From NCBI GenBank assembly GCA_010093815.1, contig ML996570.1: a stretch of 64,000 bases of DNA; one strand, 5' to 3'. The position numbers and the translations under genes are program-made. This DNA comes from Pseudovirgaria hyperparasitica (taxonomy: Eukaryota). The notes beneath the pieces were generated by a model, which made no database searches, was not told the origin of the DNA, and worked only from the letters and a program-made list of their open reading frames with translations. Below, one piece after another: positions 1 to 64,000 of this stretch. Within the stretch, counting starts at the first letter, position 1. Each line of letters opens with the position of its first letter.

Positions 1-1813
1 CGTGGTCAGTTCCGGACATGGCCATTGCGAATGAACACGTACCTAACTTATGCCAAGGCTGGAGAACAGATATCCAGGCTGCGCGTGCGATGTACCAAGT
101 GTCAATTACCAATTCTCTTGGAAGATCAGATTATGGTCTCATTACTATAGCTACTCCCCAGAGATATGGGAATACCTGAAAGAGATCGAGCGAGAGAATA
201 ATTTTATCGAAAAGTACATCAAATTGCGACATAAAATTGAGCACGCTGCATGGGACAATGAAGCAGGACTATGGAGACTTCAGATCAGAGATCTGGAGGA
301 AAATAAAGTGTTCGGCGATACCGCTGAATTCTTCATCAATGCTGGCGGAGTGCTCAACAAGTGGAAATGGCCGGACGTGCCAGGATTACGCAACTTCAAA
401 GGCAGAATCATGCATTCTGCTAGGTATGAGGTAAACTATCCTTTGTCAGGCAAGAGAGTGGCAGTACTTGGAGCTGGAAGTAGTGGAGTTCAAATAGTAG
501 CCGCCATACAGGAAAAAGTTGACACTCTGTATCACTGGGTTCGCTCGCCTATCTGGATTACTGCAGGCTTCGCTCAGACATGGGCCGGAAGAGATGGAGC
601 TAACTTCAAATGTGAGTACATGTTGCAATAATTTCCTTGGTCGTTTTGCGGGATATTGCGAACTTCGACATACTTCGATGGGGGATATATGCCATGACTC
701 CACTTTCGCAAGACAGACGCAGCTCAAAAACTTGCTGACGTTTGGGTAGATTCTCCTGAACAAATAGAGTTCTTGAGAAACAATCCGAAGAAATACCATG
801 AGTATCGCAAACAAATCGAAAATGAGCTCAATCAGCGGTTCAAGTTCATCATTAAAGGCTCGGAAGATGCGAGGAAAGCCAGGGAATCTGCACATGAACA
901 AATGTCACGAAAGTTGAAGCACGACCCACGCCTGTGCGAAAGCATTATTCCAAAAAATTTCAATCCTGGATGTCGCCGGCCAACTCCTGCTCCGGGCTAC
1001 CTAGAATCGCTTTTAGCATCTAATGCCAAGGTCTTCACAACTTCGATCAGCAAGATTGATGAGGATGGTTTTGTTCAAGACGGCACCCATTACGACGCAG
1101 ATGTGATCATATGTGCCACAGGGTTCGATACGTCGTGGCTGCCGCACTTCACCTTCGTAGGCAAGGACAAATCCATACACGAACTGTGGTCTCCCGATGC
1201 CGGCGTAACGTCATATCTGTCCGTGGGCGTACCAACCTTCCCCAATTATCTTTCGTTCTGTGGTCCCTATGGCCCGCTCGGTCACGGCAGTTTCATGCCA
1301 TTGATCGAGGAATGGACCAGGTATATGTTCAAGATTATTACGAAGGCGCAAATCGAGAATATCAAATCCTTTACTCCTCGTATGGACGCTTCTTGCCAAT
1401 TCCGCCAACATGCAGACCTTTTTCTGAAGCGTACTGCGTGGACCTCGCCATGTCGCTCTTGGTTCAAACAAGGCAAGGCGGATGGCCAAGCTGGGATCTG
1501 GCCAGGCTCTCGACTGCATTTCCTACACATGATGAAGGATGTGCGCTATGAAGATTACGAGATTGATTACTGGGACGAGAACCGCTTCGCTTTCATGGGT
1601 AATGGGTTCGACACGCGAGAGTTCGACGGGCGCGATATCACAAATTACCTAGGGATTTTAAACGATGAGGGCAAGGACGTACAGCCGGAGTATGGCGAAG
1701 AACTGATGAAGACTCTGGCTGGTTGGGCAATCGATGAGAAGTACGAGGTTCGAGGCGTGGACAGAGAGGCCGGAGACACAAGAGACGGACAGCCTTGCGC
1801 TCCAGAGGAGTAG
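1..1813 (+). CDS. Baeyer-Villiger/flavin-containing monooxygenase (StcW/MoxY-like fungal group), 5'-partial
   Basis: Introns 5-57 (GTCAGT..CTAAC..AG) and 612-749 (GTGAGT..GCTGAC..TAG) join the track ORFs 50..631 and 773..1813. Motifs: WLENRYPGCACD, fingerprint FKGRIMHSARY, NADPH Rossmann VAVLGAGSSG, PGCRRPTPAPGYL, DVIICATGF, CRSWFK. The N-terminal FAD Rossmann exon lies upstream of the window. Confidence 0.9.
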
Positions 1814-3598
1814 GCTTGAAAATGCTTCGGACGGAGGGCGTCGTGCTCTTTCCACAACAAGAGCATCTGTCCCAGGTTTCTTCATGCGCCAAGTATTGTG
1901 TGTTTGGGAATATCTTCTTCCGCACTCCGTGGGGCTAATTGCTTGACTTGCGAATAGCTATGCAAGACTTGGTAAGTCCCTCAACCCAGGCAGTGCGAAC
2001 ATAGCATGAACGAACACGTATCTACAAAACCACCAATGTAAGACTCAACTACACAACACGATATCAAGCAAGATCTCGGCAATTGTCACAGTGTGTTCGA
2101 CTTCCTATAGCATTTAGGTTCTGTTTTGTTGACATTTCACCAAATACCCAGGGCCTCTCACACGGTGCATTTCTATCATTGTCTCGCAAGTATCGGAGCT
2201 CATCAGTCAGACCCTTGATTCACGAGTCGACAATAACATTGGTGCCTGGCAGGTACTGTAATCCAGCACTTTGCGTGAATTCGTAAGTTCTAGGTATGCA
2301 GGTAATTACATCGCGATGGTTCCAATTAGTCGTTAAAAGATATCCAGTTATTAGATATATCCATACTTAGCTAGACTAGGATTGCTCCTTGCATGACCCG
2401 CTCAGCGTGGCTGCCATGGATCCATGCAGCCCGGCTCGGAGATATCATAGAAAGTACTGTAGTGTCTGCTGGGGTATCGGTGTATTTTTACTTTTTCCCG
2501 TAATCCGTCTTGGCCGTGCTCTGAAGCTGCGGTGTGGCATGGTACCTCGTGTGGACCTATGATATGCAAGGCCTCTAGTGCGGTCTAGTCATATCTGGGA
2601 TCTGATGTAGTAGTTCTGCCGAGAAAGCGCAGTGATTAATATACATTACGTAGATAGTCCTAGCATCCAGCCAGGATGACGAGACTGCGCAAGGCTCGAG
2701 ACGGTCTGCAGATATAAGTATAGTACACAGCATGTCGCGGTAGTTCTAGTGTGCTCCAGCAAACACGATATGTACGCAGCACAAGATAGGAAATATGACC
2801 GCCGAAAAGCGCCGATAGATAGACCGAACATGCTATTCTAGAGTGGAACTACGCAAATGTTGCATCTGCATAGTCCACTCTGCAAGGCTGAACCGTTGAC
2901 CAAGCTCGTAAGCGATGAAGAGCCAACAACATCGCTCAACCTCCTTTCCAGGGCCTGGAAGGGGAGTGGGTGCGGCATCATCACAAGTCAACATGCATAT
3001 CTGGAAGTGCTGCGTCTCGGCTCCGGGGGACTGAGAGAACCGTGTCTCCGCGTTACCTCACTGCGTGTTCGAAGCAAAGACTGCATTGGCTGATGTTTGG
3101 CATGGTGGATGATATTGATAGGGCATCTCATGCGCTGCCACACGTCGGACTGACATCGGCTGCATCCATCGCATTGAATCTCTCAATCTCAGAACGGTAT
3201 CATGGCCACGAAGCCGTTGCAATCCGTTCCGCCCTCCCCATCACAATATCGAATGCCGAATTACCATCTCTGGCGCTTCACTTTGTTTCCTATATGGCCA
3301 TGGCCATGCCCAACAATCAACCTTCGCCGCCATCGTCTGCGGCGTCGTGCTGTGCCACTTCCAGGCTTCAGCTCATCCCACAAACGCACCGCATACCTGT
3401 TTGTCCACGACTCAGTAACCTGCCCGAGCAACCTTATATAGCCCCGGCTGGATCTCGATTAGCTCGACCACCACGCGACTTTCACATATGCTGTAACCTC
3501 GATCTGCTGTATGCCAGTTGAGAAATAAAGTCTTTGCCCGTACGTTGCTATAGGGTTTAGATAGCCTTACCGCACTCGACCCATCATCATCATCGACA

Positions 3599-5095
3599 AT
3601 GATCAGTGCGTTTGTCCTTCTGCTCTGTTCACTCTCTGCTTTCATCTCTTACCAGACATGGCACATACTCGTGCGCCGGCATAAGTCTTATCAGGACGGC
3701 TGTGAACCGCCGACACGCCTTCCTGGAATTGACCCAATCTTTGGCTTGGACTTCTTCTTCGAATCACTCAGACTGCAGAGATCTGACAGAATACTGGCAA
3801 CCATCAATTCTCGCTTTCAGAAATATGGGCGGACATACGAGCTACGAGCTCTTGGCTCTCCAGTCATTTTCACTATCGAGCCCGAAAATGCCAGGGCTGT
3901 CTTCTCTACAAATGAAAACCACTGGGGAGTGGCGCCCCTGAGAGCCAGTGCTATGACATTCCTGGGTCGTGGTATTATCACGGTCGATGGAGACGAGTGG
4001 AAGAGAGCCCGGAATCTAGTCAAGCCCAACTTCACCAAGTCAAATGTCATGAACTTCGCCCCGATAGAGTCTCGTTTGACCGAATTGTTCGAAAACATCC
4101 AAAGTGGCCAGCAAATTGACTTGCAATCTTCTTTCCTGCGGCTCTATATGGATTTCGGCGCCGAATGGGTCTTTGACGAGACGTTTTCGCACGCAGACAT
4201 GAAAGTGTTCGAGGCCGACTTCGACAACTGTCTATCAGGGTCAGGATTACGCCTCGCATTGGGCCCTTTTGCATTCCTCGTCCCAAAGACCAACTGGCTG
4301 AAAAGTAGAGACGTTGTACGGTCTCTTGCAAACAAATACATCGAGCAAGCTCTCTGTTCCATCTCTCCGGAGAAGTCACAGACACAGGGCCGTCTCTCAT
4401 TTCCGCGCTACCTCGCCGACAAAGCCATCAGCCGACCCGAAGCAATCGACCAGGTCCTCAACCTCTCAATCGCAAACATGGCCACCACAGCCATCCACCT
4501 CAGCAACTGCCTCTTCATCCTCTCCCGCAGACCAGACATCTGGCAGCTCCTCCAGGCCGAAGTCGCCGCCCTGCCCAACTTCACCTTCGACTCCCTGCGC
4601 ACCCTCAAAGCAATGCGAAATCTCCTCCTCGAAGCCCTCCGCTTATACCCCATCTTCCCCAATCTCTCCCGCGTCGCCCTGTGCGACACCACCCTACCCA
4701 CCGGCGGCGGGCCCCTCGGCACATCCCCCATTTTCGTCCCAGCCGGCACAAAGATCGTGCCCTCGCAAATGTCCATGGGTCGCGACGAGCGCATCTGGGG
4801 TCCCGACGCCGCCCAAGTCCGCCTGGATCGCTGGGACGAGGGCGACCTGGAGCGTCGCGCGTGGCACTTTATGCCCTTCGGCTACGGCACGCGCGCGTGT
4901 CTGGGCCAGCAGAAGTCGAATATGGAGGTGTCGTATATCCTTGCGCGGATGGTGACAAGGTTTGAACGGATAGAGAGTAGAGATGCGCGAGAGTGGGTGG
5001 GCCGGATGCGGGTGACGACGCGGAATGCGAACGGCTGCTTGGTGGCGCTGTATAAAAAGGAGGGCGTGGGAGATGCGGCCGTGGCGGATGCGTGA
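3599..5095 (+). CDS. Cytochrome P450, CYP52 clan (alkane/fatty-acid hydroxylase-like), intronless
   Basis: 498 aa ORF with an N-terminal hydrophobic anchor, ExxR (EALRLYP), the CYP52-clan insert LPTGGGPLGTSPIFVPAGT and heme loop FMPFGYGTRACLG. The I-helix is atypical (ANMATT). Confidence 0.92.
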   Translation: MISAFVLLLCSLSAFISYQTWHILVRRHKSYQDGCEPPTRLPGIDPIFGLDFFFESLRLQRSDRILATINSRFQKYGRTYELRALGSPVIFTIEPENARAVFSTNENHWGVAPLRASAMTFLGRGIITVDGDEWKRARNLVKPNFTKSNVMNFAPIESRLTELFENIQSGQQIDLQSSFLRLYMDFGAEWVFDETFSHADMKVFEADFDNCLSGSGLRLALGPFAFLVPKTNWLKSRDVVRSLANKYIEQALCSISPEKSQTQGRLSFPRYLADKAISRPEAIDQVLNLSIANMATTAIHLSNCLFILSRRPDIWQLLQAEVAALPNFTFDSLRTLKAMRNLLLEALRLYPIFPNLSRVALCDTTLPTGGGPLGTSPIFVPAGTKIVPSQMSMGRDERIWGPDAAQVRLDRWDEGDLERRAWHFMPFGYGTRACLGQQKSNMEVSYILARMVTRFERIESRDAREWVGRMRVTTRNANGCLVALYKKEGVGDAAVADA

Positions 5096-39854: not shown

Positions 39855-40298
39855 GCAGCACTGAGCACGAGACTGCAGCCGCCTCCACAAGACAGGTGAG
39901 CGTGAGAGTAGGCACATTGACTGAAACCATGAAGATATCTCAACATGACCAAAATAATGCTAATCATGCACTCGACTGATTCAACTCTTGAGGTACATGA
40001 AACAGCTACACTATAGCCATTACTAATGATGCCCCCCTATTTCATTGATCATGGTTTCTAGCTTCCAGGCAACAATGAACCCAGAGACTAGCGACTCAGC
40101 CACTTCAATACAATGTCGAGGTCCTGTGTTGGTGTCTGCATATGTCTATAAATGCAGTCGTTGAAAAAGAGACTCGTGCCACTCAACAATTCATCAACTC
40201 ATCGAACCCTGGTATAACAACCCGTTTTCTAACCCTTCGCGCCAACTGTCCACTATATCAAAGACAAGCTCCTACAGTTCGCGTAATATCCGCTCAGT

Positions 40299-41057
40299 AT
40301 GAACACATTACCGGCCAGCCTCACCACTAAGTCAAACTGTCTTAGTAAATCAGCTCTCGTCGTCCTCAACAAGAAACAGCGCTGGCTCAGACACTTCAGC
40401 GTCGAAGGCTTAGAAAGCACTTTGCACTGCGCCATCAATGCTACCCTGATCTTCGCCCAGGAAGAGGCTGGCACGGCAGTATGCATCTCGCGTACAGGCC
40501 TGATCCTCACATGTGCCCATTGCATCGCGGAAGACGCAGAAGAATTCGCTCATATACGGCAGCGCGACGTCTATCATCTGTTCGCGTCTGGTTCGGTCGT
40601 CAGTGCGCGATGCATAGCATGGGATGCCACGCGTGATCTAGCTCTACTGCGGATCGTAGCGAGCCAGGATGCCAGCGGCTCCTTCTCCTACGTGTCTCTC
40701 GCTACGCAAACTCCAAGATTGAACGCTCGTCTAGTATGTGTCGGACATCCGGGGAGCGATGATCTGGAAGTTGGAGTCGATGGCGCAAAGACTGGATATG
40801 ATATACTGCACGTGAGCACAGGACGGTTTCGAGGACTGGCAAAGGGGCAGAGCATACATGATAACAGTGAGATTGGCGCGCTGAAACACGACTGCTGGAC
40901 GTACTGGGGCCATAGCGGTGCACCACTTGTGAATAGAAAGTCGGGTGAGGTGGTGGGTCTGCATTCATCTTGGGACGAAGAGACGGGTATGAGGAGGGGC
41001 ATTGCACTGAAAGCGATACTGGACTTTCTGCTCGAACAGAGCATCAATCTGGAGTAA
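40299..41057 (+). CDS. Trypsin-like (S1/Trypsin_2) serine peptidase without signal peptide
   Basis: Catalytic triad contexts GTAVCISRTGLILTCAHC (His), RDLALL (Asp) and CWTYWGHSGAPL (Ser), followed by VVGLH. 5' end uncertain. Confidence 0.85.
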   Translation: MNTLPASLTTKSNCLSKSALVVLNKKQRWLRHFSVEGLESTLHCAINATLIFAQEEAGTAVCISRTGLILTCAHCIAEDAEEFAHIRQRDVYHLFASGSVVSARCIAWDATRDLALLRIVASQDASGSFSYVSLATQTPRLNARLVCVGHPGSDDLEVGVDGAKTGYDILHVSTGRFRGLAKGQSIHDNSEIGALKHDCWTYWGHSGAPLVNRKSGEVVGLHSSWDEETGMRRGIALKAILDFLLEQSINLE

Positions 41058-48527: not shown

Positions 48528-50244
48528 ATGGCGGGAGTTCCGTCAGGTCGAGCGTGTGAGGCTTGCCGCAAGCAGCGCCGCAAAGTGAGACTCACGAGCC
48601 TGCCTATCTAGACAGTGTCAATTTTCAGGCCTGACATACGTTCAGTGCGATCAGCAACAGCCGTCGTGCTCACGATGCAAACGATTGAAAATAACATGTG
48701 TAGGTGCTGGGGTGAGACGATATCTCTTCAAATCCTACGATGCCTCGAATGAGGCTTGTAAAGCATCGAAACAAGAACACACATCACCAGAACGTCGAGA
48801 CAGGTTGCGTATTGCCCCATCGCCAGGAAATCACAGATCAATGGTTGTGGCAGCCTTCGTTCGCGGTCTTCAAGTTGTCGACCTAAGATTTGATCTTTCC
48901 TGGGCACATGGCCCATTCTTGCATGATGTGCCGAAACGCTTGGGACAGAGTAGAGTCCTTGACACAGCAGCTATGGCCCTCATCGCCAACTTTTCGAACT
49001 CCTCTCCTATTCAGGCGAAACAATGCCCGCGAGCAACGTACATATTCGACCGAGCCGTCAAAGCTCTTCGCTTGGGTCTGAGCAACCAAAGAGAGGCTCG
49101 ATCTATAAACACTCTTTGCGCTATCTATCTACTCTGTATAGTCCAGGTGTGTAAACCACTCTCCAGTTTTTAGCATGAGGTTGCAAAACGAGACTGAGCG
49201 TCAGTAGAACTGGATCGGTCTTTCCGATGAAGCGGGTTTCCAAGGTCATGGAGAAGGTGTAGCGCAGATTCTGAACTCTGGCATCGACTATAACCCCATG
49301 GATGATTTTGAACGAAACATCATTGCAACACTATGCAGCGCAGTGGTAAGTTCCCTCTTCATTTGAAGTATTGTCTTGCATACACTGAATGTTGCCTCTG
49401 TTGGTAGATCCTGGAGAGGTTCAGGAACCCTAAGATTCGGATTGTGACATCAAGTCACCCCTGGATTTCCTGGAATAAGTCTATTGGCCTTCAATGTTGT
49501 CAAGATGACTCTTCCCCTCCGGCAGTATCCGAAGACGAGAGACATGGTACACCTCAAGAGTTGCTTCGTCTTCTCACGAAGGCTCCCGACTTCTTTTGGG
49601 CGGATGGACTACGAAAAGATGCGCGAACATTCTATGAAGACATCCTTTTGGTTATCAAGAAGTTTCGTCAATGCATCGACGAAAACATACCAGTTCCACC
49701 GTTACGATCAGATGGGAAAGAGACAAAATTCTTTAAGATAGAGGAGCTGTCTGATGCGGCAAGAATTGAATGCCATAACAAAAGGCGATACAGCTTCGCT
49801 CTAGGCTTGGGATTGATGTTTAATGCTTATCTACGAACCAACAAGATGCAGGACACCACACTCACAGCCCAAGCGAGATACTTCACAATGGAGCTGCTTA
49901 ACATCGCTGAACGAGCCGCCCAGTACCGGCCATTAGGAGCTGGATATATGATAACCCACTTGCTAGCTGCATGGACAGTGGAGACAGACTACGTTCTCAA
50001 GCTTGACATCGAAAGGATTCTAGCACTATATCGAGTCAATCTTGCGCAACGTCATTTCAGGAATGTTAGCCTCGAGGTCGAACAAGATTCATGGACGAGG
50101 CTACGTAGCCTGTCCTCCGCGGACGCTATGTTCACACCCCTGGGCGTGGACATCCTAACGTTCGGCCGACCTCCTGGTGGCACTAAAACGGTGGCATTGC
50201 TAAATCGCTTTTCCCCTCTACCTGCTATGATCGCCTCCGTGTAA
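48528..50244 (+). CDS. Zn(II)2Cys6 transcription factor
   Basis: The zinc cluster CEACRKQRRK|CDQQQPSCSRCKRLKITC is split by intron 48585-48645, so the ORF track misses it. Further introns 49147-49207 and 49346-49407 keep frame. C-terminal YRPLGA block. Confidence 0.9.
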
Positions 50245-53200: not shown

Positions 53201-53577
53201 AGCGCATTTGATTCGTTGTGTCTGGAGTGGAATGATGGATCTCAATTGTATATTAGTATATCGAAGACAAAGGCGCAGGGAGACATGTTGCATAGGAGAT
53301 GGTATAATATAAGATTGATGACCCATATCAGTGACGTTTTTGCCTTTCTCAGAAATCATGGCGCAGCGACTGTGTTGGGTAAGATCGACGACAAAGAATT
53401 GTGGCAACAATGCAGCCTACCAATTCCTCCGCCGGGTCGCCAATATGAACATGACCACCATTCTACCTATGTGGTAGATTGGAGTCGAACAAAAGCTTTG
53501 CATTACATATAGTCATAAACAATCTTTGGCTACGATCACGACGGTATTTGACCGAGAATTTAAGTGAACCACGTAAC

Positions 53578-56494
53578 TCACTTCCCATCAAGGACCACAT
53601 GACCAGGGCTCGGTGGCACTGGACCTTTGCAAAACTGTTAGTCATTGTCAGTCGGACGTTAGTTTTTGGCTCACCCGTCTCCCACACGATCGGTTCACTG
53701 CCCAGTTCAAAATGAATTTCACCTCCCTCTGTCATGATACCCAAATCCTCGTGTTCGAACCAATTTTTGTCCCATATCTGTCCATTGATACTCACGCTCT
53801 GGACATAAAAACCTTTGCGACTATTTGCATCATCTAAATTCGAAGCTGTGATCCGCAAATTCTTGTCGTGGTTGATTGTTATATTAATGTCGTCAAACCA
53901 AGGGCTTTCGATCAAGTATACTGGGGTTGTCACGATGGGGTACAAACCGAGCATTTGCCATAGTAGCCAGCAGTTCAGAGCCCCAGCGTCAGAATTTCCA
54001 GGGATGCCGTTAGTGGCGTTGAAGAAAAATTCGTAGCCGAGACTTCGGGACCGCTGAACGGACTTGTGCTGCTTGTTGATGTAGTTGTACAAATACGGAG
54101 TCGCGAAGTCAGGCTCGTTGCTATCATGTAATCAGTCGGAAAGTTATTACGAGGTGCACCAAGAGAGGCTCACGCAATGTTCATCAGAGTGGTGATGCCT
54201 AATCCGTTGACTCCTAGATCAGCACTGGTAGTGTTGGCTTGGAAGATGTAGTCTAATCGGGATTCAAAGAGAGTTTGACCACCCATGAAGCCAATCAATG
54301 TTTCCATATCGTGTGGAACGACGAACGAATACTCTATCTCAGTCAAGGAGATACTAGAAGTGATTTTTCAGACTCGAGACTCACCAAAAGGCGTGCCTTC
54401 ATAACAATAATCTGCCCAATTGCAGTCCCCACACTGATCAAGATCGTAATTGGAATCAAAGGTACCGTTCGCAAACCTTGGTGCCATGAAACCTGTAAAG
54501 TTACGGCTCTGTGCATCGTGGCTCCAACTTAGTTGCCATCCAGCACCTCTGTTGAGGTACTTTTCTTGCTCAGCCACCATTTCGCCTGAGGCAATCTGGC
54601 TGACTGCAAAGTCGTTGAGAGCATATTCCACAGTCTTAGAGATACACCGAGTGTTACGGTCAGCAGTGACATATCCGAGCGGAATCCAGTCGTCTAGAGC
54701 TCCTCGGCCTTCTTTCAAGGTACCTTGAGAGTCCACTGGGTTGTTGTCGTAGAATGGGTAGACTTCAGCATTAGTCCGGACTGCCATGTATCCGTCGGTC
54801 CAGTTGATGGCCCCACGGAGGCCTTTGACGTAGGCATCGGCAAGTACATTATCGGCATTTGAACCGCCCTGTACTAGACCGTTGTAATTGCCAGACCTTC
54901 CATCTGGCAGGAAGCCTTCGAATCTATCTGATTAGCCAAAATATCGGCATGAGCGTGCAGCATTTACCTCCACATGTCGATTACGGCTCTGATTAGGCTC
55001 TCGTAGTACCTCGGTTGTATAAGATGATAAAGACTAGCTTGGTTACGAAAAAGATCCCCTTACTGGGTTAGCAAGGACCCATAAAGTACTCATTTAACAC
55101 TTACACATTGTATAGATGTCGTCCCAGTAAGGCTCTGCAGACTCCCAGAGAGGATTTTCTCCAACGCGCTCTGAAGGTATCAGGTGCATAAAATAGAGGG
55201 ACGAATAAAGCAATGCAACACGAGTCATGTTGGCTCCCTCATTGATAGCAACTTTGATCTTACTGAAGACATCTCTATTCCACTCTTCACGGGCTGATAC
55301 AACAATATTCTGTAGATCCCAAGAAGGTATCTCTTGAGTTTTGTAGTTGCAAGCTTTGTCGATAGACATGAAAGATACTCCGACACGGGATTTAATTCGT
55401 GAAATTCCGGTCGTATTCCATGAAAACAGGGCACCAATGCGATCTCCAAGTGGTCCAGACCGGGCGACTTCTTGACCGAATGTAGGTTCAGGAATACTCG
55501 CATCCGCCGCCTGGAAACTGCGAAAGTAGCGACTGCTTGGGATCGTGTTGCGTCCAGAGAACGTTCTGGCCTGAGAAGGGGCTTGATCGAACTCGCCACA
55601 AAAATATATGGTGACTGGAGCGCCGATATTCCAGCCACCTGCGATGCTTGTCCACCCGGTATATACAAGGCCACCTGGTTGTATTTCTATTTCTCCTCCA
55701 ACGTACAGCTGAGCATCCCAAGCTCTATTTATACTTGGTAGAAACTGCTACCTGTTAGCTCTGAACAGCTAGTGTATGAGTGGTACACTGTACATGGGAA
55801 GCGTCTACGAGAATATGCTTTTCATCTGAAGGATATAGGTAGCTCATGATTCCAGCATGACGACTTGCTGATAGTTCGATAGTAACATTATTCTGAAGTT
55901 TGGTCTTGAAGTAGCCCACGCGAGCCATCTCTTCGGAATAGATCCTCTCCTGCATGTACGTATTGTTGTCCAGAATGTTGACTGGCGATGACACAGATAC
56001 CAAGGGCATCTGTGATGGATATCCATATCTACAAGTGTCAGTGTCCAAGAGCACTCTACTCGATGCGTTAATCTGACTTTGGCCCACCACCAGTACCTTA
56101 GCTTTCTATCAGTCTTTTTGCCATCGTATCTGGAAACATGTGACTACCTGACTCATGTAGCATAGAAATACCGGTAACCCTTCCTCGAGGGGTGTAGCCT
56201 CCATTTATGGTGGTCATGTTCAATGGCGTTTCAAGAGTATCGATGCCTAATTTGACCATACCAAATGGCATAGCGGCGCCGACAAAGATATCGCCTCCTC
56301 CATCTGGCAATATATCAGTGATCATACACCGCATACTAATTCCGTGGAACTCAACAGGCGAGCCCTGAGATGGCACCCTCTGAACCAATCAAAGGATTGA
56401 CGAATTGTGAATAATCCATGTAATCTTCTGGTGCTTGAAGTCCACCAACAAGCTTCAGGGCTACAAGCACAATCGCTCGCGCTTTGACCCCCAT
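53578..56494 (-). CDS. GH92 alpha-1,2-mannosidase (10 exons)
   Basis: Introns 56304-56355, 56097-56147, 56029-56077, 55745-55793, 55059-55104, 54924-54967, 54334-54384, 54121-54173 and 53625-53674. Motifs: VNPLIGS, PFGMVKLG, HESGTGGGPKYG, WDLFR, QGGSNAD, SKTVEYALNDF, NEPDF, PGNSDAGAL, WETGPVPPSPG. Confidence 0.93.
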
Positions 56495-56805
56495 GGCAAT
56501 GTTCCGGATGTAGGCTTTCGTTTTAGTGTTCCGTTGTAGCAATATATACACAATACCTTTCATGCGGCAAGAAACGGAAGCTTTCTCCTGGCGTATGGAT
56601 CAAGACCCCGCATTGCTCGTCTAGTGCACATGACGTCGGCTGGCATTTAGCAGTTTCTGTAAATCTAGGTAACAAGATCGGTATTTGACGATAACGAAGT
56701 GATCCGGGCGCGCCAATGATATGCGAAATGTCAGTAGAGATTCAGGAGCGTTTACTAAGGAATAACATAGGTAAGATAATTATAGCCTGAGGCATCAAAT
56801 TCTTC

Positions 56806-58910
56806 TCACACTACGACACGCATGAACCTATCGAAGTACATGCGTGCGCTCTCAACATCATCGACGTCAGCCACTACCCCGATATATCCATCTGGACGAA
56901 CGATAACCATGCGGCCCTTAAGACGATCGACTTCTAGCCTTTCATAAGCACGGCCATGCCCCTCGTGCGCGCTTTCCACATCTGCAAATACGCGCCAGTA
57001 GTCGTACCCATATTCCTCATTCCACGGTCGAAACACTTCTGGCAGACTGAGTAGCTCAACCTTGTCTCGGTCTGCACAGTGGATCAAAAGAACCTCTACC
57101 TGGGCTGGATCGCTACCTTTGATAAGATCCCCCAGTGGGTAAGAGTCGTCAGCCAGTTGTGTTCCAACCTTTCGCAAACGGTCAAAGAGCGGAGGCTGAG
57201 AGATATCTCCAGCGAATACCAAGATGCGAAACTGGCCAGACGCGTGCAGCCGCTGGTGTATGCGCGTTGTTGTACCATCAACTTGCAAGACCAATTGAAC
57301 GTCTGCGAGTCGTTTCCCTGGAACGAGATCTAGTTTCAAGAGACTAGGGCCGAGATCTCCCAAGCCACGTGGCATTTGAACGATATTGGATAGGGAATAT
57401 CTTATGGACATTCCAGTAGTGAACCGTGAAGCCTTGGCGAATTCATCGTCGAAAGAGTTCGATGACGCTGAGAATAATTTGAGATACCCACGATCGAACG
57501 CAATGAGGTCCTGAGCCACCGGGCGACGCTCTGATTCGTACGTGTCCAGGATGCACGGGTCAGCCTTACCCTCAAGAACTAATCTGAGCTTCCAGCCAAG
57601 ATTATTGACGTCCTGCACGCTTGTGTTCATACCCTGTCCTGCCTTAGGAGAGTGGGTATCTAGAAGGATTAGCCAATGTCGCAGCCACCTTTTCTATATT
57701 CATACGTACGGACTGCATCGCCCGCGAGAAATGCCCGAGAATCATGGGTTGTAAAATGATCACCCACACGCTGGCCCACACGATACGCCGACCACCAGGA
57801 ACAAGTGGCTATGTCGAGATTGTAGGGAGAAATAATCTTGCGCGCCGCCTCAAGGATGATGTCCAGGGTAATGTCTTTTGGGTCAGACAGCTCACTTCCA
57901 CTCTCCACCTATGAAAGGCTCAGCTAGCTGCGGGTGCGTAGGTCCTATAACATCGACTTACCGGTATATACATACGCACTTCCCGATTGGAGCGAGGTAC
58001 CAATAGTATGGTTCCATTCGAGGCTCGCAAATAACATACCTTTCGAATATCTGGAAAGTTCGTTTTTGGGATGAAGTCCATGACACCTAGATCGCATGAG
58101 GTCGAGATTCTATGAATCGGGGCACTCTCTTACCAAAGACAGAATCCGTCAGATCACCTTCGAGCTTCACATTAAGTGCTTTTCGCATCCAGCTGCGGGC
58201 GCCATCACAACCTACTACGTACTTTGCACGTATCGTGCCGACCTGGCGGAACTCATCGGTGACCTACATTGATCAATCTGTGAATAGAAGGGTACCAGAA
58301 AACTCACATTGATTTGATGATCCTCCGAGCCAATCTCCATCCTCGATAATTGTACCGAGACCGGATAGGCTTCTGAAGTCAGCATGTCCTTGCTATCGAT
58401 GTTGATGGAGCTCGGTCGGATATTCCTTAAAAGGGTCACATTTTTGCTCTGTAAGAGGTTGTGCGCCATATGGTGTTCACATCTAGACTGTTGCAACATG
58501 CACTCTCGCGGCTTCCCCAGCTCTTGAACTTTATCTTGCATCACTTGCTCTCTCCTAATTCCATGAACGCCTTCGCTGTGTCCCCATATTGCAATCTCTT
58601 CCAAACGATGCGCTTCGGCCCATATCTGCGAACCAATGCCAAAGCTTTCGAAAATCTCGACTGTAGTACTCTTGAGACCTTCTGCTTGTCCACAGAGAGT
58701 TGGGTGCGCTCGTTTATCCACCAAAAGTACTCGTATTTTACTTTTATGGAACCAGTTTGCCAACGCCAAACTGTCTAGAGCATTCAGTGAGGGTATTCTA
58801 CCCGTCAACACAATACTGGGTATGTCAAACAGGAAATTCATAGACTCTCACCCTGCTGGCCCGGCGCCCACTATAAGAACGTCCACAAAATTTGCACTCA
58901 GGCTCCCCAT
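56806..58910 (-). CDS. Phenol 2-monooxygenase-family (group A) FAD-dependent aromatic hydroxylase with C-terminal thioredoxin-like domain
   Basis: Introns 58771-58851, 58264-58307, 58087-58133, 57909-57961 and 57660-57709. Motifs: VDVLIVGAGPAG, KYVVGCDGARS, TNFPDIR, FLAGDAVHTHSPKAGQGMN, NLGWKL, TYESER, VRPDGYIG. Confidence 0.93.
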
Positions 58911-59288
58911 TTTCGAGACTGGGATACTGCCCACAGAATATCACCGTCGTAGAGACTCAAGGTCTGAAGAAGCAGATGCTTTGGTTGCGTTACAATAATT
59001 CCTAAATGGATCGAGTTACTCATTCGAGTTAGCTCGGAGACACAAGCTTGCGATATCGCTCCGTAGATACACATATCGACGACAGCACAGCAGGGGTCGG
59101 AATGTGCAGAAACGAGCCATAAATTGCATGGATTTTCGTTTCCAGCTTGATCTACATCACTAGCCTGAATCCTGGTGCGGTTTTTATTGAGAAACACCTT
59201 TACACCTACCGCTAGGTATTCTCACCATCTGGCCAATAATCCATCCAATCACGCCGAAGGTCAGGCTCCCGCCATCAACAGCCACCCA

Positions 59289-60510
59289 TCACTCGGCTGG
59301 CTGAAGCCAGTAAATACCTGCAACATTCATCAGCTATGCATTCCGTCGTTGGATGTTTAGACTTGCCATAACCAACATCAGGACTACTCCATATGTCGGC
59401 TAGTACGAGACCTTGCGGCGAGCACATTCGGTCAACGTCGCTTCTCGTCCATTTGCCGCTACTCAGAGTATGCAAACGCTCTCCTTCTTCAATTTTGACC
59501 ATCGTACCGTCGATGGTCGCGGTCAATGTCTTCCTGGCGGTAAGGTAGTTCTCATAGCGATGATTTCCGGGATTCCAGGCTGCTGCCCACTGCCAATTGT
59601 CGTCATGGAGAACGGCATCGGCTTCAGGCCCGAGTTGAAGTCTACCGGCTTTCAATGCATACCGAACCCACCGCCGTGTGGCACCTCCCGGGATATCATA
59701 CGCTTTATTTATTCGTGACACGTCCTGACATCCATCGATGCCAATGATGAATCCTTGGAGGCATTCAACCCCTTGAGCTTCACTGAAACGACCTAGTAGG
59801 TCACCAGCCTCGCCTTGCTCGAGGTTTGCAATACTATTGCCTAACCATGCGATCGTCTTCTTTCTCCCTCGTGCTTCCTCAGATGTCGCTAGCCATTTCG
59901 CAGCATCCTCATAGGTGCCTTGAAGGGCACAAAGGTTGATATTACGGAGCTTCAAGCTGTCTTGTAAAGACTTGAGAGCGTATTCGAGAGCTGTATGGTC
60001 GACATCGAGGGCGTAGTATGTCAAAGGTGTATCTAGTGCATCAAGATGGCGCAGTATGAGGCCAGTCTTCTCCATGTTGCCAGCCCCAAGCTCCAGAAGG
60101 ACATCGCTGCCTGTGCTCGCTATCTTCCGCGCAATATCGCCGACCTTCAGTTTCAAGAGCTCACTTTCAACCCTGTACGGGTAATAGTGCTTTGACCTTA
60201 CGATTTCATCGTACAGCTGCTGACCTTCATCTCCCCACAAGAGCAGAGACGGTAGGTACTTTTGGTTCCGTGGCTGTCTCAGACCCTCCAAAGTCTGTGT
60301 GCGCAGGTTGGTCAGTGGTGCGTCTTCTTGTCGAATATCGACGATTCGGTAGGTGCCTTCAATTGAAAGACTCCTCGAGTTGATAGAACTAGGAGATGAA
60401 GAGCAATCTTCATATCGATATTCGTGCTTCAGACTCTGTCGCCCTCGATTATCAGTAATGAAAACATTGCTGAAATTAGCCTTGCTAGACGGGTCCTTCT
60501 CTGATAACAT
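59289..60510 (-). CDS. Stand-alone EgtD/EasF-family (Methyltransf_33) SAM-dependent aromatic amino acid N-methyltransferase
   Basis: IVDIR, KYLPSLLLW, YYPYRVE, SAM motif LLELGAGNMEKT, YYALDV, GTYED, WLGNSIAN, IIGIDG, EEGERLHTLSSGKW. GC-AG intron 59318-59366 gives the C-terminus DVGYGIYWLQPAE*. Confidence 0.9.
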
Positions 60511-61944
60511 GATCGCGATGTTATACTGTAGGTGAAGAAAGGTTGTGGTTTATACAAGAATGGCATGTCAAGTCAAAAAGATATACAGACTTTAATACTA
60601 ATGTTACCAGCTATAATCTCATCTCGACATCCCGGAACACAAATCACTTTTCGTTGCGTTCTGACGGACTTAACGAGCCGTTTGTCCAATGCAAGCTGCA
60701 CAGCAGCGATCGTGTCTGCGACCTTTGAATCCATTCGGCTAATGTAGAACTCCTTAGCCATCCTTGTGTCGGTCTCTTCAAACAGCGCAGGGTACAGCTC
60801 CTAGTGAGATTCGGACCTAATATGCGGCTCAACAAAGCGCCATCAGAGCAGTATCTGGCATTAATACCATATAGTTCTCTAAATGGTACTTTAGTAAGCA
60901 GTTATGAATTATTTATGAAGAGGTCTCAGTATCAACAAGCACTGATTTAGCATAGAATATACTGTGTTCACTATGTCACTTTCGCAATTTTCCACATTAT
61001 TTCCATATTACGCAAACAGTATTACAGAAGGAAGAGTATCGCATCTTCTATGCTGATCTCACTCAGTCCCCATTCCTACTCTTATGAAAGATGTATTAGG
61101 TTTGCGATTAAGAACCACTCGTTAGGTCACGTGAGAAGGTTACTTATTCGTGCCCTTTTCTCAGTATGTATGACTGATGTCATGTAGGAATAGTGATTCT
61201 CCTATCAATTACTGATAACCAAGTACCGAGCCCTACTAATCCCAACTCGTCTATCATCGATCGAGGATAACAAGGACGAAAGGTGCCTATAACGGTCATC
61301 ATGATGCGCACTAGCGGCGGGTGCTGGTAATATGTTATCTCGGTCCAAGCTTTGTCACCGTGCGCACGCTCCACTTGCATGAGCCCATTCGAGCGACAGA
61401 AAGCATAATCTGCCGTATCACTCATGACGTGTTCTAATTACCATTTCTGGAGATATCTCTTCCAAGGCCAGACTAAAGTAACCGACTTACCTAAACTGCG
61501 TATTGCCCTAACGCAAGGTGACTGAGCACGCAACTGTGTTGAAAAGCTGATAGGTACCGACACACACGGCTACATATACACTAGCGGCAGACCGCAGCTG
61601 AGGCTCGGGCCATTCTTTGGACAGCTCATCCGGTGGCTGGCTGAGCTGACAAGGCGCGGCAAGAGGTGGGGATCGCGTTTAGAGCCGTGTAGGCTTTTAG
61701 GAACGGCAGGGATCAGCCGATCGGAGTTTGCTGTAAGATCAGATCCACAACTCCTTGTCGGAGAGATTAGCGATAATCGTACACCCGGGCTTGAGAGTCA
61801 ACATTGGCCGACGTCAATACTTTTACTGTCTCCCTCAAACTTTACATATGTTCGCGTTCACATTCTCGGGCTAGTGTCTACCGTGAAGTCACAAGCAACA
61901 AGGTTGCTACGGACCGCCGCCTGGAGATCCCTGTGAGCTGCACT

Positions 61945-64000
61945 ATGTCGTTGGATCAGTCACATAGAAGCGAGATAGGATGTGAAAGAACAAACCTCCT
62001 ACAATCATCAAGCAGCAGCACGTCTGGAAGCGGGCAGCATACTCCTACGTATGCAAGCACAGTCAACGAAGAACATAAGCAAGGTGCTATCAAAGGTCAC
62101 CGCCATGATTCTAGTACCAGTGTGGTCGAGTCCCTGGACTACCGCACTCAGTTGAAGAAGAACTTAGTGTTGCTGTTGAGTATGTACAGTTCTCCATTCC
62201 TAGAGCTTCACTGATCGGCCAGGTGTTTATCTATGCAACTCTGATACATCAATTCTACTGGCCATGTTCCGTTCAGTCGCCTCTGAATACGACAAGATGG
62301 ACCAAGCCAGCTGGATCATCAATAGCTACATCATAGGCCTCATTGTTGCACAGCCCATGGTATGCAGACCAAGAAACTACCTGGACCCTTGACTGATAGT
62401 CAATAGTATGGGAAGCTTTCTGATATCTATGGCCGCAAAGGTCCTCTTCTCCTGGCCTATGTTTGCTACCTTATAGGCGCCATACTCGCGTACGTAAAAT
62501 CCATTCTGAAGCGCGATTCTTCTCACATGTCATACATAGTGGAAGTGGTGTATCATTTACGGGAGTCCTGATAGGGCGCGCTATTGCGGGCGTTGGCAAT
62601 AGTGGCATCTCTGTCCTCATCTCTACGCTCATTGTAGATCTGGTTCCTATGCAAGAGGTGGCTGTTTGGCGTAGCTATGTATACGCACTAAATATGGCAG
62701 GTCGAGCCCTCGGACCCCCGATTGGAGGTCTTATTGCCGACAGGAGCAACTGGCGATGGTTTGTCTAGATAGACTTGACGCTCGTTCACACCACTGACCA
62801 AGGCAGGGCTTTCCTCTATCAGACCCCGATCGTACTGCTCACTATCATCTTTGTTTGGTGGAAGATGGAGATCCCAAACGCTGCGAAGAAGATCGAAAAC
62901 TACGCTGATGAGGACCGCTCGAGCTGGACCAAGAAGCTTAAGCGAATCGACTTTGGTGGATCTATAACCCTAGGCATTGCAAACATTGGGCTTGTGCTCT
63001 TTCTTGACGAGATCTCGAAAGATCTCAATCTGGCACAGAACACGCTTGCGATCGTTTCAATGGTGATATGGCTCGTTTTCTTGGTCGCTTTTGCAGTCTG
63101 CGAGGGTTTCATCGCCCATGAACCCGTATTGCCACTTCGACTGCTGATCAAGCGGAATGTTTTCGCTGCGTACATGATCCAATTCATGCAGACGGCAGCA
63201 CAAGTCGCTGTAAGTTTCTGAATGTTTCCAATATTTTGAACAAACTAATCGGCTCATAGCTATACACATCCATGCCTCTGTACTTCAGGGTGACGGTAGG
63301 AGACAGCACGACCAGAGTTGCCCTCCGTCTCGCCATAGTCACGGTTGGGACGATCGTAGGTGGACTCATCAGTGGATTCGTAATAAAGCGGTACGTATAG
63401 TCAATAAAGGCACTATAATAACCACGTCCTGACAGCTTGCAGAACTGGAAAGTACAAGCGGCTCATATTCGTCTCAGTTGTCATGTCCAATATTTCTTTG
63501 TTTGCCATCTATATTCGATGGCAGGGCAACACTGACTGGGCCGAGACGCTCTATGGATTTCCCGTTGGACTCGGCTTCGGCGTTTCTCTATCTGCTGCAT
63601 TTATCGGCTTGACCTTTCGCCTGGAGCCATCTCAGATTGCGATAGCAACATCTGGATTCTACCTCAGCGTCAACCTTGGTAGTCTGTTTGGAGTTAGCAT
63701 ATCCTCCCTCATAATCGTGTCGATAGTCAAGAAGAACTTGTATGCATCACTCAGTGGCTTTGATAATGCTACTGCAATCATCCAGAGTGTTGTAAGGAAC
63801 TTTGATGAGATCAATCGATTGCCTGGAAAGGTTCAACTGCTTGTCCAGCGCGCCTATATCGATAGCATGATTTCCGTTTGGCGTAAGTTCACACTGACAA
63901 CCTCGGCGACTCTTCTAAGAAATTTTCACTGACTACATTAAGTTTTTGCATTTATCTGTGGCATGCTCTCTCTTCTAGCCACTTTCTTAATGCAAGAGAC
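61945..64000 (+). CDS. MFS drug:H+ antiporter (DHA2/Vba-like), 3'-partial
   Basis: Introns 62180-62222, 62360-62406, 62490-62539, 62759-62806, 63210-63259, 63391-63442 and 63883-63942 all keep frame. Motif A YGKLSDIYGRK, GRAIAGVG, motif C GPPIGG, WRWAF, RIDFGG, EPVLPL. Runs off the window end. Confidence 0.92.

What the first reader, a model, noticed from the sequence alone, without database searches (positions are those of the whole stretch)
56806..64000. Edge of a putative isoquinoline / N-methyl-aromatic-amino-acid alkaloid gene cluster
Seen: a phenol 2-monooxygenase-family gene and a stand-alone EgtD/EasF-family methyltransferase in tight tandem (378 bp apart), sharing a 1.4-kb divergent region with a DHA2-type MFS exporter that runs off the window. 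Established: in A. fumigatus fumisoquin (FsqG phenol monooxygenase, FsqC N-methyltransferase, FsqB FAD oxidase, FsqD ATP-grasp enzyme, FsqF NRPS-like) and A. flavus imizoquin (ImqC, ImqF, ImqH, NRPS ImqB), tyrosine is ring-hydroxylated, N-methylated and oxidatively cyclised to a tetrahydroisoquinoline. Inference: this is the left boundary of a related, possibly undescribed cluster. If no core enzyme follows, it would be a minimal NRPS-free route to an exported hydroxylated N-methyl amino acid or betaine. The core gene is not visible here.
Basis: partly seen in the sequence, partly recalled or inferred. Interest (0 to 1): 0.8.

Follow-up and report, generated by a model that had tools for sequence, protein, structure and literature searches.

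The report
Backbone-free tyrosine-modifying fungal gene cluster
These genes are not the edge of a large alkaloid cluster but a complete small gene set, shared with Neurospora and switched on there in fruiting bodies, that probably turns tyrosine into an exported N- and O-methylated DOPA-like compound nobody appears to have identified.

Summary
The three genes are real, intact and at the stated spacing. No NRPS, ATP-grasp or FsqB-type oxidase follows. Beyond the window lie only a catechol O-methyltransferase (COMT) and then housekeeping genes, so the cluster has four genes: monooxygenase, EgtD-type N-methyltransferase, MFS and COMT.

The set is conserved. In 13 of 15 named genomes the N-methyltransferase orthologue shares a contig with the monooxygenase or COMT orthologue. 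In Neurospora (NCU07916-07920), Podospora and two metagenome loci a laccase follows as a fifth gene; here its closest homologue is unlinked.

The monooxygenase clade is sister to the FsqG clade, away from catabolic phenol hydroxylases. The methyltransferase keeps the amino-acid-backbone residues but has lost the histidine-specific glutamate. The Neurospora genes are co-expressed in perithecia, and three of them depend on VE-1.

Best reading (about 0.55): tyrosine is converted to an N-methylated (mono to betaine) 3-O-methyl-DOPA, exported, and perhaps oxidised by the laccase in the fruiting-body wall. An isoquinoline is unlikely. No substrate or product has been shown, and ten literature searches found no description of the cluster.

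The parts
56806..58910 (-). FAD-dependent phenol 2-monooxygenase-family gene, 6 exons, 609 aa; clade sister to FsqG; putative tyrosine ortho-hydroxylase
   Evidence: Pfam; model; 5 of 5 introns skipped in spliced contigs; tree; shared residues
59289..60510 (-). Stand-alone EgtD/Methyltransf_33 N-methyltransferase, 390 aa; keeps Y56/N166/Y206/S284 equivalents, E282->L, M252->N, F47->Y
   Evidence: separate fused Egt1 on contig C16
59318..59366 (-). 49-nt GC-AG intron at a position where relatives have GT-AG introns
   Evidence: GT donor visible in 8 of 9 related loci examined
60511..61944 (.). 1434-bp divergent region between methyltransferase and MFS
61945..64000 (+). MFS transporter, 8 exons, 594 aa; ends 79 bp beyond the window. 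The fourth cluster gene, a 279-aa catechol O-methyltransferase, follows wholly outside the window (G000:C6:808665-809586, plus strand, 585 bp after the MFS stop)
   Evidence: MFS: model; MFS_1; 7 of 7 introns skipped; orthologues at 36-48% in related loci. COMT; DHHK and ADN motifs; intron skipped

Best explanation
A complete backbone-free pathway acting on free tyrosine. The FAD monooxygenase hydroxylates the ring ortho to the phenol to give DOPA. The EgtD-type enzyme methylates the alpha-amine with SAM, one to three times (up to a betaine). The Mg/SAM COMT methylates the new catechol, most likely giving an N-methylated 3-methoxytyrosine. The MFS exports the product. Where the conserved fifth gene is linked (Neurospora, Podospora, two metagenome loci), a secreted laccase would oxidise the exported guaiacyl or catechol compound outside the cell, in perithecial tissue. 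SHOWN: gene content, intact spliced genes, synteny, clade positions, retained motifs, co-expression of the Neurospora genes. INFERRED: tyrosine as substrate, reaction order, number of N-methyls, O-methyl position, export direction, laccase step.
For: The cluster ends after COMT, with no backbone in 120 kb. The window monooxygenase clade (15 rows, SH-aLRT 99) is sister to the 19-row FsqG clade (99). Window enzyme and FsqG score 372 and 382 bits against PHHY 1pn0, versus 698 for a general-clade member. K53, S54, E77 are in 26 of 26 window+FsqG rows, while the general clade mostly has Q, C, L. The methyltransferase keeps the EgtD residues that bind carboxylate and amine (PMC8593015 passages; mapped) and none of the 45 clade rows has Glu282. 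A hydroxylase that makes catechols sits with a catechol-specific O-methyltransferase; all three enzymes share a contig in 6 of 15 named genomes, and at least two do in 13 of 15. N. crassa NCU07916-07920 each correlate 0.87-0.99 with the other four; 5 of 5 rise at least 4-fold at 72 h versus 2 of 19 flanking genes. In a second study, NCU07916/19/20 rise 8-18-fold one day after fertilisation and not in the ve-1 deletion. Related chemistry exists in lichens as sticticin (PMC6332210).
Against: There is no enzyme assay or metabolite. FsqC, ImqF and ImqC could not be identified by name in my sets, so the methyltransferase's relation to them is untested; the named outside relatives compared are only 32-36% identical. 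F47->Y does not settle mono- versus trimethylation, because some Egt1-like rows also carry Y there. NCU07918 (the presumed MFS, annotated hypothetical, not checked by sequence) is not induced with the others in the VE-1 study and is higher in the mutant. The MFS is absent between methyltransferase and COMT in L017. The laccase is unlinked in this genome. In the Lehr data the 72 h jump coincides with a switch to hand-picked perithecia, so it shows tissue enrichment rather than timing. The genome has 3 other COMT paralogues. The monooxygenase tree is a quick, midpoint-rooted tree without PHHY itself.
Confidence: 0.55

Rival explanations
1. Tetrahydroisoquinoline pathway: N-methyl-DOPA is cyclised by the unlinked FsqB-like oxidase, or by the laccase, and then O-methylated.
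For: The monooxygenase is sister to FsqG. An FsqB-like gene exists at G000:C3:925-927 kb (E 6e-49 to 6gg2). FsqB converts free N-methyl-DOPA without an NRPS (PMC6222107 abstract).
Against: That oxidase is on another contig among unrelated genes and hits 0 of 13 related loci. No oxidase motif lies in the 120 kb examined. FsqB needs the meta-hydroxyl to cyclise, which a 3-O-methylating COMT would cap; a betaine could not form the iminium (chemistry, inference).
Confidence: 0.12
2. Same logic but another aromatic substrate (Trp or hydroxy-Trp, Phe, or a tyrosine-derived acid or amine), or repeated hydroxylation and methylation to a syringyl-type amino acid.
For: The clade has its own pocket residues (F216->W, N217->V/I/M, M252->N/S/T), and the monooxygenase has Glu where FsqG and PHHY have Asp in GQADGL. 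An EgtD variant with V252/A282 (4pip) is recalled to bind Trp.
Against: PHHY-type enzymes need a phenol and COMT needs a catechol (established knowledge). The backbone-binding residues point to a free alpha-amino acid, which leaves Tyr/DOPA as the simplest fit.
Confidence: 0.2
3. Detoxification or catabolic module: plant- or host-derived phenolics are hydroxylated, methylated and pumped out.
For: The hydroxylase, COMT, MFS and laccase families all have such members. A CLR-2 binding peak is assigned to both NCU07916 and NCU07917 (PMC7084071 supplement). Many carriers are dung or litter saprobes (recalled).
Against: The monooxygenase lies outside the PHHY-like clade. An amino-acid N-methyltransferase has no place in phenol catabolism. 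Expression is low in the vegetative comparisons seen (baseMean 2-99), near zero for NCU07916/19/20 in germinating conidia, and high in perithecia under VE-1.
Confidence: 0.08

Closest known systems
Fumisoquin (fsq) cluster of Aspergillus fumigatus
   Same: The monooxygenase is 44% identical to FsqG (UniRef name FSQG_ASPFU) and in its sister clade. It is paired with an EgtD-type N-methyltransferase (FsqC role recalled).
   Different: No NRPS-like FsqF, ATP-grasp FsqD or oxidase FsqB at the locus. It has a COMT and, in relatives, a laccase. It forms its own orthologue clade at about 60% identity.
Imizoquin (imq) cluster of Aspergillus flavus (recalled; not retrievable here)
   Same: Recalled hydroxylation plus N-methylation of tyrosine. 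An A. flavus enzyme of the FsqG side is 46% identical (P0331); that it is ImqC is a guess.
   Different: No NRPS and no cyclising oxidase.
EgtD/Egt1 histidine trimethylase and aromatic amino acid betaine synthases (fungal Tyr/Trp betaine synthases recalled from Vit et al. 2015, not seen)
   Same: PF10017 fold, E 4e-25 to EgtD 7scf, backbone-binding residues kept.
   Different: Lacks Glu282, Met252 and Asn217; not fused to the sulfoxide synthase; the genome has its own Egt1; clustered with ring-tailoring enzymes.
Sticticin (lichen alkaloid; PMC6332210 passages show a 1,3,4-substituted aromatic that gives methyl caffeate in base; 'DOPA betaine methyl ester' is recalled)
   Same: The kind of product expected from ring hydroxylation plus N-permethylation of tyrosine.
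   Different: Sticticin is a carboxyl ester with a free catechol; here a catechol O-methyltransferase is encoded. No named lichen row fell in the cluster clades.
N. crassa NCU07916-07920 and P. anserina Pa_6_7840 ... Pa_6_7880 (annotated, uncharacterised)
   Same: Orthologues: monooxygenase 63% and 59%, methyltransferase 46%; COMT and laccase by annotation.
   Different: Monooxygenase and methyltransferase are divergent in the related loci that show both but tandem here; the laccase is linked there and unlinked here.

Membership tests
fsq/imq isoquinoline clusters | FsqG/ImqC-type phenol monooxygenase | tested here: met
   Sister clade to FsqG with shared diagnostic residues; not within the FsqG clade itself
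fsq/imq isoquinoline clusters | FsqC/ImqF-type N-methyltransferase (orthology) | tested here: inconclusive
   Lies in an 81-row non-Egt1 group (support 1.0) with Aspergillus/Penicillium N-methyltransferases, but no row could be named FsqC or ImqF
fsq/imq isoquinoline clusters | Linked FsqB/ImqH flavin oxidase | tested here: not met
   None in 120 kb (motif control positive); nearest homologue on C3; 0 of 13 related loci
fsq/imq isoquinoline clusters | Linked NRPS / NRPS-like / ATP-grasp core | tested here: not met
   No true motif hit in 843 ORFs; longest ORF 1204 aa; no A-domain on C6 among 13 of 97 candidates scored; ATP-grasp only on C11
Egt1/EgtD (ergothioneine) | Histidine-specific pocket (Glu282) and fusion to, or linkage with, sulfoxide synthase | tested here: not met
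   E282->L; stand-alone; separate Egt1 on C16
Aromatic amino acid N-methyltransferase (PF10017) | Fold plus carboxylate/amine-binding Y56, N166, Y206, S284 | tested here: met
Betaine synthase (trimethylating) | Processive trimethylation | not testable with these tools
   F47->Y is ambiguous; needs an assay
Catabolic phenol hydroxylase (PHHY orthologues) | Grouping with the PHHY-like clade; GQADGLQCRT motif | tested here: not met
   372 versus 698 bits to 1pn0; GQAEGLKST
Mg-dependent catechol O-methyltransferase | COMT fold with D-H-x-K and D-N metal/catalytic motifs (their roles recalled from the mammalian enzyme) | tested here: met
   E 7e-39 to 5zy5, 1e-33 to 6aw5; FFDHHK and ADN conserved
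DHA2 (14-TM) exporter | 14 transmembrane helices, efflux direction | tested here: inconclusive
   MFS_1 hit; crude hydropathy gave 11 peaks in 594 aa

The most novel reading that the evidence does not exclude
A fruiting-body 'tanning' pathway distinct from DHN- and DOPA-melanin. N-methylation blocks DOPA from cyclising to melanin, as N-acylation does in insect cuticle catechols. O-methylation gives a guaiacyl, lignin-like monomer. The exported monomer is coupled into the perithecial wall by a dedicated secreted laccase (NCU07920 / Pa_6_7880; here the unlinked C1 homologue). This would be a fungal counterpart of cuticle sclerotisation or lignification built from an amino-acid betaine, overlooked because it has no backbone gene.
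Probability: 0.2. Interest if true: 0.85.

Novelty: new variant of a known kind. Interest (0 to 1): 0.62.

Why it matters
It is a conserved, developmentally regulated biosynthetic cluster with no PKS, NRPS or terpene core, so backbone-based genome mining would likely miss it. It sits unstudied in two model fungi where knockouts and expression data make a direct test cheap. It suggests that the tyrosine-tailoring pair of the fumisoquin pathway also works as a stand-alone module, and it offers a candidate natural substrate for an orphan, perithecium-induced laccase.

Tried and rejected
1. Larger cluster downstream: rejected. After COMT come an Sm protein, dihydroxyacetone kinase, Ybp2, cyclin, a transglutaminase-like protein and a helicase.
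2. Upstream GH92 mannosidase and Zn2Cys6 factor as members: no support was found, but this was not cleanly tested. The tblastx part returned noise and was discarded.
3. Finding FsqC or ImqF by name: 10 look-ups gave none.
4. Baccile et al. 2016 was not held, so fsq/imq gene roles other than FsqB and the FsqG name are recalled.
5. The look-up of sequencing runs listed no holder on record as RNA. The two runs nevertheless gave spliced contigs; they are one sample, and their depths were not used to rank genes.
6. ESM Atlas gave only family-level names.
7. Earlier scan notes: nothing relevant.
8. Podospora gene ids for the four core genes: no paper. PMC9103826 held nothing relevant. The PMC9922455 supplement had no rows.
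9. The careful IQ-TREE run did not finish, so the quick tree was used; the 1193-aa fused row P0151 was dropped. 53 of 201 methyltransferase rows were dropped as partial before the residue table.
10. The 357-bp gap printed came from a wrong donor guess and was corrected.
11. No structure or complex prediction was run.
Full report
OBSERVATION. The window is G000:C6:744001-808000. Its proteins match records that the databases label Pseudovirgaria hyperparasitica. Three genes are as described: a phenol 2-monooxygenase-family gene (58910-56806, minus, six exons, 609 aa), a stand-alone Methyltransf_33 gene (60510-59289, minus, 390 aa), and an MFS gene from 61945 (plus, eight exons, 594 aa). The gaps are 378 bp and 1434 bp. 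Contigs of two public runs from one sample skip all five monooxygenase introns, all seven MFS introns and the intron of the next gene at the predicted sites. The listed contig over the methyltransferase is unspliced at its single 49-nt intron, which has a GC donor where 8 of 9 related loci show GT; three joints were not displayed.

WHAT FOLLOWS. I read 56 kb beyond the window. In window numbering continued, the MFS ends at 64079. 585 bp later comes a 279-aa catechol O-methyltransferase (64665-65586; E 7e-39 to PDB 5zy5; DHHK and ADN motifs). After it come housekeeping genes. Across 120 kb, 843 ORFs of at least 60 aa gave no adenylation, carrier, condensation, KS or amine-oxidase motif except one chance match inside the monooxygenase; the longest ORF is 1204 aa. 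No A-domain lay on contig C6 among the 13 of 97 candidates scored (a lower bound), and the one ATP-grasp hit is on C11. An FsqB-like oxidase exists, but on C3 among unrelated genes. The locus is therefore a closed four-gene set.

CONSERVATION. Each enzyme has a distinct orthologue clade. Trichocladium and Copromyces do not, though the Copromyces cluster-mate does. Tags or accessions are consecutive or nearly so in Venustampulla (04569/04570), Thermocarpiscus (5431/5433/5434), Ophiocordyceps sinensis (004477/004479), Collariella, Diplogelasinospora, Cercophora, Bombardia and N. crassa. These span Dothideo-, Leotio- and Sordariomycetes (classes recalled). The metagenome scan gave 13 loci, one of them distant. 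The other 12 reduce to 8 distinct ones by my reading of identical coordinates. The monooxygenase is adjacent in 6 of 8, the MFS in 4, the COMT in 3 and a laccase in 2; most of the rest are short contigs, but L017 lacks the MFS between methyltransferase and COMT. The FsqB-like query hit 0 of 13. In N. crassa the genes are NCU07916 (phenol 2-monooxygenase), 07917 (methyltransferase orthologue), 07918 (hypothetical; MFS by inference from gene order), 07919 (COMT) and 07920 (laccase) (PMC7084071 supplement rows; PMC9922455 passage). P. anserina has Pa_6_7840 and laccase Pa_6_7880 (PMC3129052 table). The closest laccase in this genome (59-62% over about 315 aa; the other loci match at 28-59% and at far lower scores) stands alone at C1:212.8-215.6 kb.

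ENZYME IDENTITY. In a quick midpoint-rooted tree of 51 rows, the window clade (15 rows, support 99) is sister to the clade holding FsqG (19 rows, 99), apart from the general clade. The general-clade member P0122 scores 698 bits to yeast phenol hydroxylase 1pn0, against 372 for the window enzyme and 382 for FsqG. K53, S54 and E77 are in 26 of 26 window+FsqG rows and rare in the 17 others. The methyltransferase keeps the equivalents of EgtD Tyr56, Asn166, Tyr206 and Ser284, which bind the amino-acid backbone (PMC8593015 passages; alignment). It has Leu for Glu282, Asn for Met252 and Tyr for Phe47 (148 of 201 rows kept). Its clade (45 rows, 1.0) lies outside the Egt1-like group, and the genome has a separate fused Egt1. 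FsqC and ImqF could not be named in my set.

EXPRESSION IN N. CRASSA. In Lehr et al. 2014 (PMC4203796, supplement rows and passages), each of the five genes correlates 0.87-0.99 with the other four over eight stages. All five rise 4.2-16.8-fold from 48 to 72 h; 2 of 19 flanking genes rise at least 4-fold and 1 of 19 reaches r 0.85. From 72 h the samples were hand-picked perithecia, so this shows perithecial enrichment. In an independent study (PMC11481897, supplement rows and passages), NCU07916, 07919 and 07920 rise 8-18-fold a day after fertilisation, not in the ve-1 deletion, and are in the VE-1/MAK-1/MAK-2 co-regulated list. Against my reading, NCU07918 is not induced there and NCU07917 is not in that table. 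Counts for 07916/19/20 are near zero in germinating conidia (PMC9239088 supplement; its sexual series may be the same data as Lehr's). Pa_6_7880 is abundant in wild-type P. anserina and was proposed as a melanin laccase (PMC3495915 passage and one supplement row); I did not check the tissue used.

MECHANISM. Most likely free tyrosine is ortho-hydroxylated, N-methylated and O-methylated to an N-methylated 3-methoxytyrosine (mono-methyl up to betaine), exported, and possibly oxidised by the laccase in the fruiting-body wall (0.55). Gene content, synteny, clade positions and co-expression are shown; every chemical step is inferred. An isoquinoline (0.12) needs an FsqB-type oxidase and a free meta-hydroxyl (PMC6222107 abstract and passages); the first is unlinked and the second would be capped by a 3-O-methylating COMT. 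Another aromatic substrate or a more substituted product (0.2) and detoxification (0.08) remain possible.

KNOWN AND NEW. It works like the first two steps of the fumisoquin pathway but fails membership of the fsq/imq family on two defining features. Ten full-text searches found no description of this cluster or its product; the genes appear only in annotation tables and passing mentions. The library lacks most subscription journals and bioRxiv supplements. Baccile 2016, the imizoquin paper and Vit 2015 were not seen and are recalled, so prior characterisation of a Neurospora or Podospora enzyme cannot be excluded. Verdict: a new variant of a known kind, interest 0.62. The boldest reading not excluded is a laccase-coupled wall-tanning pathway built on a blocked DOPA monomer (probability 0.2, interest 0.85).

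Noticed in passing
window 59318-59366 (-): GC-AG intron in the methyltransferase; if retained, the frame reads on to 59275 and gives a 21-aa longer C-terminus. The public model P0002 also has a different N-terminus (422 aa) from the simple ATG at 60510.
   Followed up: partly
window 58264-58307 (-): Spliced contigs support a 44-nt second intron (609 aa); the public monooxygenase model (602 aa) omits seven residues here.
   Followed up: yes
window 58852-60561: One spliced-run contig runs unbroken from monooxygenase exon 1 through the 378-bp gap and the methyltransferase, and continues into the divergent region and MFS with unlisted skips: possible read-through or overlapping UTRs; a contig does not prove one transcript.
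   Followed up: no
G000:C1:212836-215600 (L044): Stand-alone laccase, the closest own-genome homologue of the laccase linked to the cluster in relatives; neighbours look unrelated.
   Followed up: partly
G000:C3:925254-926951 (L035): Amine-oxidase gene whose best PDB match is FsqB (6gg2, E 6e-49); unlinked to any biosynthetic core in 30 kb read.
   Followed up: partly
window 53463-56520 (-): Multi-exon GH92 alpha-mannosidase directly left of the cluster; spliced in the same contig as the monooxygenase.
   Followed up: no
window 48589-50244 (+): Zn2Cys6 transcription factor 6.5 kb from the cluster, beyond the mannosidase; no evidence that it belongs.
   Followed up: no
window 47-5095 (+): A flavin monooxygenase-like gene (by eye) and a cytochrome P450 (PF00067) close together at the window start; a possible small oxidative pair.
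   Followed up: no
window 40287-41057 (+): Stand-alone Trypsin_2 peptidase without an obvious signal peptide, next to an F-box-like gene.
   Followed up: no
P0366 and P0369 (lichen fungi): EgtD-type domains at the N-terminus of 1580-aa and 528-aa proteins from Squamulea and Wetmoreana, in the same non-Egt1 group; possible fusions to other biosynthetic domains.
   Followed up: no
P0502 / P0085 (Penicillium coprophilum, contig length 1873788): An FsqG-side monooxygenase and a related N-methyltransferase share a contig, suggesting that the pair travels together in further clusters.
   Followed up: no
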